Shown: piece by piece, positions 47,001-48,994 of the stretch | Layout of the letters: every line of letters starts with the position of its first letter | Numbering within the stretch: position 1 is the first letter of the stretch | NCBI RefSeq assembly: GCF_041248615.1 | Contig: NZ_CP158426.1 | Direction: 5' to 3' (one strand) | DNA length: 64,000 nucleotides | From: Escherichia coli | GTDB lineage: Bacteria; Pseudomonadota; Gammaproteobacteria; Enterobacterales; Enterobacteriaceae | Program-made: the position numbers

Positions 47001-48994
47001 CTGCGGAACATGCGGATCTCATACAGCTCGTTATTGATCGTCGCCTGAATAATCCCCTGATGCTGTTCCGCCATGGTGGTGATGTTTTGCAGATTCAAAT
47101 GCGGCAGCAAATGATCGGCAATTTTGTTACTTATGACAGTGCGGTTCGATTCCTGATCGTGAACCAGCAGGCCAAGCGGCAGCAGTGAGACTATCTCTTC
47201 ATTGATTGCACGTAAAATGCGCAATTCGTTATTGACCGCCGTGCTGGGGACGTTTTCTGTACTGCGGCTGGAGAAATGGCGGAATGTGGTATAGCCAAAT
47301 AACGCCAGCGCCAGCAAACCGATATTCAGCAGCAGTGGCAGCAGAATGTTTTGCAACGTATCCAGCAGTAAGGTGCCATAAGGAACCTGCCAGACCAGGC
47401 GCATATCGGTAGAGTTGAGTGCCGAGGAGATTTCAATCTTCGTACTGTTAAAGTGGATACTGACGCTATCCGTCCCTTCTTTCTCATTATCATTGTTTCC
47501 CGTTGCCGTCGCGTCTGGCTCAAGGCGGAAACTGTCCAGCGGCATGCCCGGTGGGATCAAATCATTAATCGGCAGATCAAAAGCCACGACCGTTGCCAGA
47601 TGTCCCGGCTGGTTGAACGTGGTACGCAAGGTAAAGTAATGACCGTTCTGCCAGGCCAGGCGGCGCATGTTAGAAAAGCTTTCGCGTTCATCGAGGGCGT
47701 TGGCCTGTTGCAACATCTCTGCACGACGTGAATCAACAATGTCGCTGACGGTCGATTCTTTAAATCCGGAGGTGAGATCTTTAAGGGGCAGGGTTGAGAT
47801 CAGCACCAGACTGTTATCCTGACCATTCAGGTAATACATCGACCACGGTACATTTTCTGCGCCCCACAATGTATCCAGATAAGTGGACATCCGTTGAGTC
47901 ATCTCAAGCGTTGAGTTGTCGTGAGAGCCAAAGATTAACGCTTCCGTTTTGCGGCGTGGTTTCTCCAGATAGTAGACATCCTGTTTCAGGCGCGTCTCTT
48001 GTAAACCTTCGCCGGAGGAGGGGGTGGTCGTCGCGGCAATGTTGTCGTAGATCTGCCAGGTCACGTAACGCCAGGTATCGACGCGCTTTTGGATAGCGTG
48101 GGTAATGTCGACAATCTGGTAACTTTTATCTTTCAGCCAGGCGTTAACGGCGCTTTGTACCATTACACCCATCGTCACCAGTAACACAATGATCAACAGT
48201 AAAAAGAAGCGGGTAATGCTCCCCGGTAGGAGTGAAAAGCGGGTCGTGGCCGTTGTCTCTTTCTGACGCATTCGTGTTTATGACCTGTTAAAACTTCGCG
48301 AAGTGATAGGGCAGTATAAAGGGTACAGTGTGAAATTCCAGACTCTTACCGGATTGATGATTCTCTATTCTCCAGTGATATTTATCATCCTGCATTGGGG
48401 GAAATAGATGTACAAGCGCCATTTTGCTGTACAAATAACCTACGAAAAGCCCAACGAAATTAATTGCAAATAAACGAAGATTGCTGGAAATTATGCTGAT
48501 GTTAATTATTTGTGAAATAGTTAACAAGCGTTATAGTTTTTCTGTGGTAGCACAGAATAATGAAAAGTGTGTAAAGAAGGGTAAAAAAAACCGGATGCGA
48601 GGCATCCGGTTGAAATAGGGGTAAACAGACATTCAGAAATGAATGACGGTAATAAATAAAGTTAATGATGATAGCGGGAGTTATTCTAGTTGCGAGTGAA
48701 GGTTTTGTTTTGACATTCAGTGCTGTCAAATACTTAAGAATAAGTTATTGATTTTAACCTTGAATTATTATTGCTTGATGTTAGGTGCTTATTTCGCCAT
48801 TCCGCAATAATCTTAAAAAGTTCCCTTCTATTTACATTTTGAAACATCTATAGCGATAAATGAAACATCTTAAAAGTTTTAGTATCATATTCGTGTTGGA
48901 TTATTCTGCATTTTTGGGGAGAATGGACTTGCCGACTGATTAATGAGGGTTAATCAGTATGCAGTGGCATAAAAAAGCAAATAAAGGCATATAA

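What the first reader, a model, noticed from the sequence alone, without database searches (positions are those of the whole stretch)
48583..48894. micF-ompC divergent regulatory region appears intact
The 93-nt MicF antisense RNA with its terminator and the three OmpR-site repeats of the ompC promoter are both present. This is a textbook locus; it is listed because the sRNA would be missed by ORF-based annotation.
Basis: partly seen in the sequence, partly recalled or inferred. Interest (0 to 1): 0.3.

Follow-up and report, generated by a model that had tools for sequence, protein, structure and literature searches.

The report
Intact micF–ompC porin control region
This is the well-known E. 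coli small RNA gene micF, lying back-to-back with the ompC porin gene and its OmpR-controlled promoter; it is complete and almost identical to the laboratory strain K-12, so the finding is correct but ordinary.

Summary
The observation and the interpretation both hold. Rfam MicF (RF00033) matches window 48583-48676 on the minus strand over its full length, at 116.8 bits against a gathering score of 79. The window is E. coli chromosome (rcsC-rcsB-rcsD-micF | ompC-apbE-ada-alkB).

From the micF terminator to the ompC start codon, only three bases differ from K-12:
- MicF U82C. It turns a G·U pair in the terminator stem into G-C, at a pair that covaries across Enterobacteriaceae. It is the majority E. 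coli allele.
- A rare CT-for-GC dinucleotide at 48828-48829. It lies in a variable spacer 2-3 bp upstream of OmpR box C1.

The following are all present and conserved across about 110 Enterobacteriaceae species genomes: the MicF seed that pairs with the ompF ribosome-binding site, the terminator, the micF -10 and marbox, OmpR boxes C1-C3, and the ompC -35, -10 and leader. The 375-aa ompC ORF is intact.

Novelty: already known. Interest: low.

Two side observations are worth recording. An invariant 9-nt block (AAAAGTTCC) upstream of C1 has no regulator that I could assign. GyrA in this window carries S83L and D87H.

The parts
48583..48675 (-). micF gene: 93-nt MicF small regulatory RNA (the Rfam match runs one base further, to 48676)
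   Evidence: RF00033 full length, 116.8 bits against GA 79. 92 of 93 bases identical to K-12 b4439. Exact 94-nt allele in 3231 of 5374 E. coli genomes.
48643..48675 (-). MicF 5' seed (nt 1-33), which base-pairs with the ompF mRNA translation-initiation region
   Evidence: Identical to K-12. RNAduplex with the K-12 ompF leader gives 25 pairs covering ompF -16 to +10 (Shine-Dalgarno and AUG), dG -27.4 kcal/mol against -13.95 +/- 2.84 for shuffled seeds, z = -4.7. Mechanism as described in PMC5745476.
48583..48611 (-). MicF intrinsic terminator: 10-bp stem, 3-nt loop, U8 tail. Contains the U82C difference from K-12 at 48594.
   Evidence: Terminator scan. Folded 3' segment dG -15.8 in the window against -12.9 in K-12. 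Pair 70-82 is G-C in 55, A-U in 35 and G-U in 21 of 111 sequences, paired in all.
48683..48688 (-). micF -10 hexamer TAGAAT (TAnAAT conserved), with a poor -35 (AAAACA at 48706-48711)
   Evidence: Read from the sequence. Position fits the TSS at 48675. Five of six positions are conserved in at least 90% of 111 sequences. Not called by the simple sigma-70 scan, as expected for an activator-dependent promoter.
48707..48726 (-). mar/sox/rob box (ACAGCACTGAATGTCAAAAC) overlapping the micF -35 region
   Evidence: One mismatch to AYnGCACnnWnnRYYAAAYn. The GCAC and YAAA parts are invariant or nearly so across species. micF activation by MarA, SoxS and Rob: PMC5745476, PMC2787020, PMC12282887. The class II assignment is from memory of Martin et al. 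1999.
48816..48824 (.). Invariant block AAAAGTTCC, at a fixed distance (7 bp) upstream of OmpR box C1; regulator not assigned
   Evidence: 107-111 of 111 sequences identical at each of the 9 columns. It is the longest fully conserved run in the intergenic region outside the ompC leader and Shine-Dalgarno region, with no gaps between it and C1.
48828..48829 (.). CT dinucleotide where K-12 has GC; a rare E. coli allele in a variable spacer
   Evidence: Alignment to K-12. The exact 81-nt allele is found in 113 of 5369 genomes. These are among the most variable columns of the neighbourhood across species.
48831..48850 (+). OmpR box C1 (TTTACATTTT GAAACATCTA)
   Evidence: Identical to K-12. Lies within the published C1 duplex (PMC2586830). 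Mean conservation 0.87.
48852..48871 (+). OmpR box C2 (AGCGATAAAT GAAACATCTT)
   Evidence: The exact 10-nt repeat TGAAACATCT recurs 21 bp after the copy in C1. GAAACA is invariant across species. Box boundaries are from memory of Harlocker et al. 1995; the tandem C1-C2-C3 scheme is in PMC3050692.
48872..48891 (+). OmpR box C3 (AAAAGTTTTA GTATCATATT), a degenerate third copy
   Evidence: In register 20 bp after C2. GTATCAT is invariant across species; mean conservation 0.90. Identical to K-12.
48896..48924 (+). ompC core promoter: -35 TTGGAT (48896-48901), 17-bp spacer, -10 GAGAAT (48919-48924); TSS inferred near 48930
   Evidence: Read from the sequence. TTGGAT is invariant and xAxAAT conserved. 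Identical to K-12. Below the threshold of the simple scan. The TSS is inferred, not measured.
48930..49009 (+). ompC 5' untranslated leader with a stem-loop (48930-48963) and the Shine-Dalgarno GAGGG (48997-49001)
   Evidence: Identical to K-12. Inverted repeat I3. A 14-nt invariant run, CATATAACAGAGGG, at 48988-49001.
49010..50137 (+). ompC coding sequence, 375 aa, intact; a surface-loop variant allele
   Evidence: ORF list. NCBIfam NF007841 porin OmpC, 759.9 bits against cut-off 484. 91% identical to K-12 OmpC, with insertions and deletions confined to a few segments. RefSeq annotation of identical DNA.

Best explanation
This is the canonical E. coli micF-ompC divergent locus, complete and functional-looking.

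micF (minus strand, 48675 to 48583) encodes the 93-nt trans-acting sRNA MicF. Its first ~33 nt pair with the Shine-Dalgarno and AUG region of ompF mRNA, which is encoded elsewhere in the genome, and block translation initiation. The 3' hairpin and U-tail terminate transcription.

micF is driven by a weak promoter that depends on activators. MarA, SoxS and Rob act at a marbox overlapping the -35, and OmpR-P acts from the shared upstream region.

On the other strand, three tandem 20-bp OmpR sites (C1-C2-C3) sit immediately upstream of a weak ompC core promoter. Filling of C2 and C3 at high OmpR-P activates ompC.

High osmolarity therefore raises OmpC and MicF together and lowers OmpF. Oxidative, antibiotic or xenobiotic stress lowers OmpF through MicF.

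Shown here: presence, integrity, near-identity to K-12, structure, seed complementarity and cross-species conservation of every element. Taken from the literature, not tested here: protein binding, transcription and the regulatory outcome.
For: - Full-length Rfam MicF hit well above the gathering score.
- The window is E. coli chromosome with the rcsD-micF|ompC-apbE gene order.
- Only 3 substitutions against K-12 from 48583 to 49012.
- Terminator found; the U82C change strengthens a covarying pair.
- The seed pairs with K-12 ompF -16..+10, z = -4.7 against shuffles.
- Marbox with 1 mismatch, conserved.
- The exact TGAAACATCT pair at 21-bp spacing is unique in 64 kb.
- Match to the published C1 oligonucleotide.
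- Of 120 Enterobacteriaceae species loci with the MicF seed, 111 have a divergent porin start 321-344 nt from the micF TSS; 8 of the other 9 have too little stored upstream sequence to judge.
- Conservation islands coincide with MicF, the -10, the marbox, C1-C3, the ompC -35/-10 and the Shine-Dalgarno region.
- OmpC passes the NCBIfam model.
- Mechanism statements: PMC5745476, PMC3050692.
Against: - Nothing contradicts it.
- No expression or binding data exist for this strain.
- The ompF target is outside the window, so pairing was tested against K-12 ompF only.
- The simple sigma-70 scan does not call either real promoter, and the marbox consensus alone is not significant in 64 kb (4 matches against 1.4 expected). 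These elements rest on identity to K-12 and on conservation, not on motif statistics.
- Conservation of MicF nt 1-28 in the species set is circular, because those loci were retrieved with a pattern in that stretch.
- The rare CT allele next to C1 is untested functionally.
Confidence: 0.97

Rival explanations
1. The locus is present but regulated differently in this lineage. The rare CT-for-GC dinucleotide 2-3 bp upstream of OmpR box C1, and/or the stronger MicF terminator (U82C), would change ompC or micF expression.
For: The exact CT allele is found in only 113 of 5369 complete E. coli genomes. It lies between C1 and an invariant block. U82C lowers the folded energy of the 3' segment by 2.9 kcal/mol.
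Against: 48828 and 48829 are among the most variable columns of the neighbourhood across 111 sequences: A 64, T 24, G 20, C 3 at the first and T 61, A 37, C 11, G 2 at the second. That points to little constraint. C82 is the majority E. coli allele (3231 of 5374), and pair 70-82 freely alternates between G-C, A-U and G-U. All conserved positions are unchanged from K-12.
Confidence: 0.05
2. The stretch encodes a small protein rather than an RNA: the 75-aa TTG-start ORF at 48502-48729 on the minus strand, which spans micF.
For: The ORF exists mechanically.
Against: It has a TTG start. It runs through a hairpin and U8 terminator and through the micF promoter. It is not annotated in any RefSeq record examined, including curated K-12. 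Substitutions across species keep the RNA base pairs. The covariance model explains the stretch fully.
Confidence: 0.01
3. The MicF match is a decayed or chance resemblance and the gene is not functional.
For: None, beyond the absence of direct expression data.
Against: 116.8 bits over the full model with posterior probability ~1.0 throughout. 92 of 93 bases identical to the experimentally characterised K-12 gene. Promoter and terminator are intact.
Confidence: 0.01

Closest known systems
E. coli K-12 micF (b4439) / Rfam RF00033 MicF
   Same: Same gene at the same chromosomal position, divergent from ompC and upstream of rcsD. 93 nt, with identical seed, internal hairpin and promoter. Full-length covariance-model match.
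   Different: One base, U82C, which makes terminator pair 70-82 G-C instead of G·U. This is the commoner E. coli allele.
E. coli K-12 ompC promoter with tandem OmpR sites C1-C2-C3
   Same: Identical sequence from 48830 through C1-C3, the -35, the -10, the leader and the start codon. Architecture as described in PMC3050692 and PMC2586830.
   Different: CT instead of GC at 48828-48829, just outside C1. The OmpC protein is a different allele: 375 aa against 367 aa, 91% identity, with differences in a few segments that I take to be surface loops.
micC-ompN divergent pair
   Same: The same design: an sRNA that represses one porin, encoded divergently from another porin gene (PMC5745476).
   Different: A different locus, sRNA and target. 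It is not in this window, and no MicC hit was found here.

Membership tests
MicF sRNA (Rfam RF00033) | Covariance-model score at or above the family's gathering score, over the full length | tested here: met
   116.8 bits against 79; model positions 1-94 of 94; E = 9.5e-18.
MicF sRNA (Rfam RF00033) | 5' end complementary to the Shine-Dalgarno/AUG region of ompF mRNA | tested here: met
   MicF nt 1-33 pair with K-12 ompF -16..+10: 25 pairs, dG -27.4, z = -4.7 against shuffles. Caveat: this strain's own ompF is outside the window.
MicF sRNA (Rfam RF00033) | Rho-independent terminator hairpin with a U-tail at the 3' end, with the stem supported by covariation | tested here: met
   10-bp stem and U8 tail. 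Pairs 66-86, 70-82, 71-81, 72-80 and 74-78 change while staying paired across 111 sequences.
MicF sRNA (Rfam RF00033) | Encoded divergently from ompC with a shared intergenic control region | tested here: met
   micF TSS at 48675 (-), ompC ATG at 49010 (+), 335 nt apart. The range is 321-344 nt in 111 other species loci.
MicF sRNA (Rfam RF00033) | Expressed as a ~93-nt Hfq-dependent transcript that lowers OmpF | not testable with these tools
   Needs a northern blot or RNA-seq and OmpF quantification in this strain.
OmpR-activated ompC promoter | Three tandem 20-bp OmpR sites (C1-C2-C3) immediately upstream of the -35 | tested here: met
   48831-48891. Identical to K-12. The C1 sequence matches the published duplex. 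Exact repeat at 21-bp spacing plus a degenerate third copy at 20 bp. Conserved across species.
OmpR-activated ompC promoter | OmpR-P binding and osmolarity-dependent activation | not testable with these tools
   Needs EMSA or footprinting and reporter assays. Inferred from sequence identity to the characterised K-12 region.
mar/sox/rob regulon promoter (micF) | A 20-bp marbox positioned at or overlapping the -35 | tested here: inconclusive
   One-mismatch match at 48707-48726 (-), overlapping the -35, identical to K-12 and conserved. The consensus scan alone is not significant in 64 kb: 4 matches against 1.4 expected, and 5 of 100 shuffles reach 4.
Porin OmpC (NCBIfam NF007841) | Whole-protein score above the curated cut-off, and better than the OmpF and PhoE models | tested here: met
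   759.9 bits against cut-off 484. OmpF scores 475.1 and PhoE 450.7, both below their own cut-offs.

The most novel reading that the evidence does not exclude
The 9-nt block AAAAGTTCC (48816-48824) is invariant in all 111 Enterobacteriaceae sequences examined and sits at a fixed 7 bp from OmpR box C1. It marks the upstream edge of the conserved ompC control module and is more conserved than the OmpR boxes themselves. It could be a discrete cis-element with no regulator yet assigned: an extra OmpR-type half-site, or the site of a partner factor acting with OmpR at C1. The rare CT allele of this strain lies in the spacer between the block and C1. I could not reach the older footprinting literature, so it may already be explained.
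Probability: 0.2. Interest if true: 0.3.

Novelty: already known. Interest (0 to 1): 0.07.

Why it matters
It matters little as a discovery. micF was the first chromosomal regulatory RNA described, and this copy is essentially the K-12 gene. The practical value is for annotation. The RefSeq E. coli records sampled leave micF unannotated, so an RNA-aware pass is needed to label it and to avoid calling the spurious ORF across it. In this strain the intact MicF/OmpF-OmpC permeability switch sits in the same window as a GyrA S83L/D87H quinolone-resistance genotype and a variant OmpC allele. That gives some context for reading its antibiotic permeability phenotype.

Tried and rejected
1. The simple sigma-70 scan found neither the micF nor the ompC promoter. 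Its two hits (48510-48537 and 48860-48888, plus strand) are at chance level (2 found, 3.0 expected). Both real promoters are sub-consensus and activator-dependent, so I located them by position, identity to K-12 and conservation.

2. The marbox consensus scan gave 4 hits in 64 kb against 1.4 expected, which is not significant on its own.

3. RNAduplex of full-length MicF against 190 nt of the ompF leader gave a meaningless over-extended duplex. I replaced it with a seed-only duplex.

4. For the invariant block AAAAGTTCC, by-eye comparisons with several consensus sequences recalled from memory gave no convincing match:
- CpxR (GTAAA-N5-GTAAA): the in-phase second half-site reads AGGGA.
- A sigma-E -35 (GGAACTT is present on the minus strand, but there is no conserved -10 downstream).
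- IHF (WATCAANNNNTTR).
- The RcsAB box (8 of 14).
- An in-phase OmpR half-site (CC where AC is expected).

5. Literature look-ups gave nothing on the block. The string search returned only unrelated papers. A CpxR/ompC footprint search returned nothing. Delihas 2015 and Batchelor 2005 are not held. A string search for C3 returned only an unrelated Salmonella OmpA paper, which I did not open.

6. The permissive Rfam scan of 48000-49400 found nothing besides MicF.

Full report
**Observation.** The stretch was read directly and the whole window was scanned against Rfam. MicF (RF00033) matches 48583-48676 on the minus strand over the entire model (positions 1-94 of 94), at 116.8 bits against a gathering score of 79, E = 9.5e-18. 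A permissive rescan of 48000-49400 found nothing else.

A terminator-like site lies at 48611..48583 on the minus strand: a 10-bp stem with 6 G-C pairs, a 3-nt loop and a U-run. It is the only such site in 48300-49100, where shuffles average 0.3.

On the plus strand, a 375-aa ORF begins at 49010. It scores 759.9 bits on the NCBIfam OmpC model (cut-off 484), and it falls below the cut-offs of the OmpF and PhoE models.

**Origin and context.** A 701-nt query around the locus matches 5375 of 5426 complete E. coli genomes, always on the chromosome. Many strains, mostly porcine ETEC plus human isolate N3, are 100% identical. The gene order is rcsC, rcsB, rcsD, micF | ompC, apbE, ada, alkB, yojI. The window is collinear with K-12 coordinates of roughly 2.298-2.358 Mb, in inverted orientation.

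**Comparison with K-12.** Aligning 48272-49040 with the K-12 record gives 99% identity. Between the 3' end of micF and the ompC start codon there are only three differences.

- *Position 48594.* This is MicF nucleotide 82, U in K-12 and C here. It converts the G70·U82 pair of the terminator stem into G-C and lowers the folded energy of the 3' segment from -12.9 to -15.8 kcal/mol. The window's exact 94-nt sequence is present in 3231 of 5374 genomes, so it is the majority allele.
- *Positions 48828-48829.* These read CT where K-12 has GC, 2-3 bp upstream of OmpR box C1. The exact 81-nt allele is found in only 113 of 5369 genomes.

Everything else matches K-12: the seed, the internal hairpin, the micF promoter, the marbox, C1-C3, and the ompC -35, -10 and leader. 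The OmpC protein is a different allele, 91% identical, with substitutions and indels clustered in a few segments. This fits the well-known variability of the surface loops of this porin (my knowledge).

**Anatomy.**

- *micF.* The TSS is at 48675 (from the K-12 annotation). The -10 hexamer is TAGAAT at 48688..48683, and the -35 is poor.
- *Marbox.* A 20-bp marbox, ACAGCACTGAATGTCAAAAC, lies at 48726..48707 with one mismatch to the consensus and overlaps the -35.
- *OmpR boxes.* C1 is 48831-48850, C2 is 48852-48871 and C3 is 48872-48891. TGAAACATCT occurs exactly twice in the 64 kb, 21 bp apart, in C1 and C2. C3 carries the degenerate GTATCATATT 20 bp further on. The published C1 duplex TCCCTTGCATTTACATTTTGAAACATCTATAGCGAT (PMC2586830) matches the window apart from the GC>CT flank. 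The C2 and C3 boundaries are from my memory of Harlocker et al. 1995. The tandem 20-bp, two-half-site scheme and the hierarchical occupancy (C1 first, then C2-C3 at high osmolarity) are stated in PMC3050692.
- *ompC core promoter.* -35 TTGGAT at 48896-48901, a 17-bp spacer, and -10 GAGAAT at 48919-48924. The TSS near 48930 is inferred.
- *Promoter scan.* The generic promoter scan misses both promoters. That is expected for weak, activator-dependent promoters.

**Mechanism.** MicF nt 1-33 form 25 base pairs with K-12 ompF mRNA from -16 to +10, covering the GAGGG Shine-Dalgarno sequence and the AUG. The energy is -27.4 kcal/mol, against -13.95 +/- 2.84 for shuffled seeds (z = -4.7). This agrees with the published mechanism of translational repression by occlusion of the ribosome-binding site. 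It also agrees with published activation of micF by EnvZ-OmpR, SoxS and MarA and repression by H-NS (PMC5745476). MarA and Rob studies are in PMC2787020 and PMC12282887. ompF itself is not in the window, so pairing in this strain is inferred.

**Related sequences.** They come from Escherichia, Salmonella, Citrobacter, Enterobacter, Klebsiella, Raoultella, Kluyvera, Kosakonia, Buttiauxella, Cedecea, Lelliottia, Atlantibacter, Shimwellia, Mangrovibacter and other genera.

In 111 of these loci a porin gene starts divergently 321-344 nt from the micF TSS; the distance here is 335 nt. Eight of the other nine have too little stored upstream sequence to judge.

An alignment of the window with the 110 loci that had enough flanking sequence shows conservation islands that coincide with the functional elements. 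Mean identity to the window is:

| Element | Mean identity |
|---|---|
| MicF | 0.92 |
| micF -10 | 0.85 |
| Marbox | 0.85 |
| C1 | 0.87 |
| C2 | 0.77 |
| C3 | 0.90 |
| Region between the marbox and C1 | 0.53 |

The ompC -35 TTGGAT is invariant, and so is the leader/Shine-Dalgarno run CATATAACAGAGGG.

MicF stems are supported by covariation. Pair 70-82 is G-C in 55, A-U in 35 and G-U in 21 sequences. Pairs 66-86, 74-78 and 36-41 also change while staying paired.

The window's U82C therefore sits in a freely covarying pair, and the CT dinucleotide sits in highly variable columns. Both are most likely neutral.

Two caveats apply. Conservation of MicF nt 1-28 is circular, because the loci were retrieved with a pattern in that stretch. 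The species are also related to one another, so the counts are not independent events.

**Annotation point.** The curated K-12 record annotates micF as an ncRNA. Strain N3, identical over the 701-nt query around the locus, and eight other RefSeq records sampled show no feature under the match. Two TTG-start ORFs lie over or beside it on the minus strand: 48502-48729 (75 aa) and 48288-48527 (79 aa).

**Verdict.** Observation confirmed and interpretation supported. This is the textbook locus, already known, and of low interest.

**Residual curiosity.** The only thing left unexplained is the invariant block AAAAGTTCC at 48816-48824. It lies 7 bp upstream of C1 with fixed spacing, and the alignment breaks into gaps immediately upstream of it. 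By-eye comparisons with CpxR, sigma-E, IHF, RcsAB and in-phase OmpR half-site consensus sequences were unconvincing. The literature I could reach did not mention it.

Noticed in passing
window 48816-48824: AAAAGTTCC is invariant or nearly so in all 111 Enterobacteriaceae sequences aligned. It is more conserved than the OmpR boxes, sits at a fixed 7 bp upstream of C1, and marks the upstream edge of the conserved ompC control module. I could not assign a regulator to it. AAAAGTT also begins box C3 (48872-48878).
   Followed up: partly
window 22453-25080 (+), codons at 22699-22701 and 22711-22713: gyrA carries S83L and D87H relative to K-12 ([13 protein letters not shown]), plus D678E. This is a double mutation in the quinolone-resistance-determining region, a genotype expected (my knowledge) to give fluoroquinolone resistance.
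   Followed up: yes
window 11822-13254: A 1.43-kb insertion absent from K-12, between inaA and yfaE. It carries two ORFs (11864-12394 and 12499-13221, plus strand) that match the IS3-family transposase model (299.8 bits). From memory of the InsJ/InsK sequences it looks like IS150; that identification was not tested.
   Followed up: partly
window 8822-11063: An intact LysR-family regulator (8822-9721, minus strand) and a divergent MFS transporter (9873-11063, plus strand) occupy the place where K-12 retains only the yfaH pseudogene fragment. K-12 has a ~1.9-kb deletion here.
   Followed up: partly
window 44846-44922 (+): An Rfam naRNA4 (RF02564) hit at 71.7 bits against GA 59.5, in the rcsC-rcsB convergent intergenic gap. 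It looks like a REP/BIME-type repeat rather than a dedicated gene.
   Followed up: no
window 49010-50137 (+): The OmpC allele is 375 aa against 367 aa in K-12 and 91% identical. The differences cluster in a few segments with indels of 4-8 residues (for example around residues 176-190, 222-237 and 311-317), which I take to be surface loops.
   Followed up: partly
window ~56720-56828: About 457 bp of the K-12 eco-mqo intergenic region (L004 7499-7956) has no counterpart in the window. I did not examine what K-12 carries there.
   Followed up: no
L038 (E. coli SCPM-O-B-8794), aligned to window 48800-48870: Within Escherichia there is a second, clearly diverged allele of the region upstream of and through C1-C2 (for example GAAATACCTATGTGGATATTTGTAACA). 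It may correspond to the 306 genomes in the 90-95% identity band. That would suggest the allelic diversity of ompC extends into its promoter.
   Followed up: no
window 6226-6244 (-): A perfect match to the marbox consensus (ACCGCACACATTATTAAAT) in what corresponds to the glpT-glpA intergenic region. It may be chance: 4 hits against 1.4 expected in the window.
   Followed up: no
L071 (Enterobacter sp. EA-1): This is the only species locus with ample upstream sequence (1500 nt) in which no divergent porin start was found next to micF. The gene may be disrupted or rearranged there.
   Followed up: no
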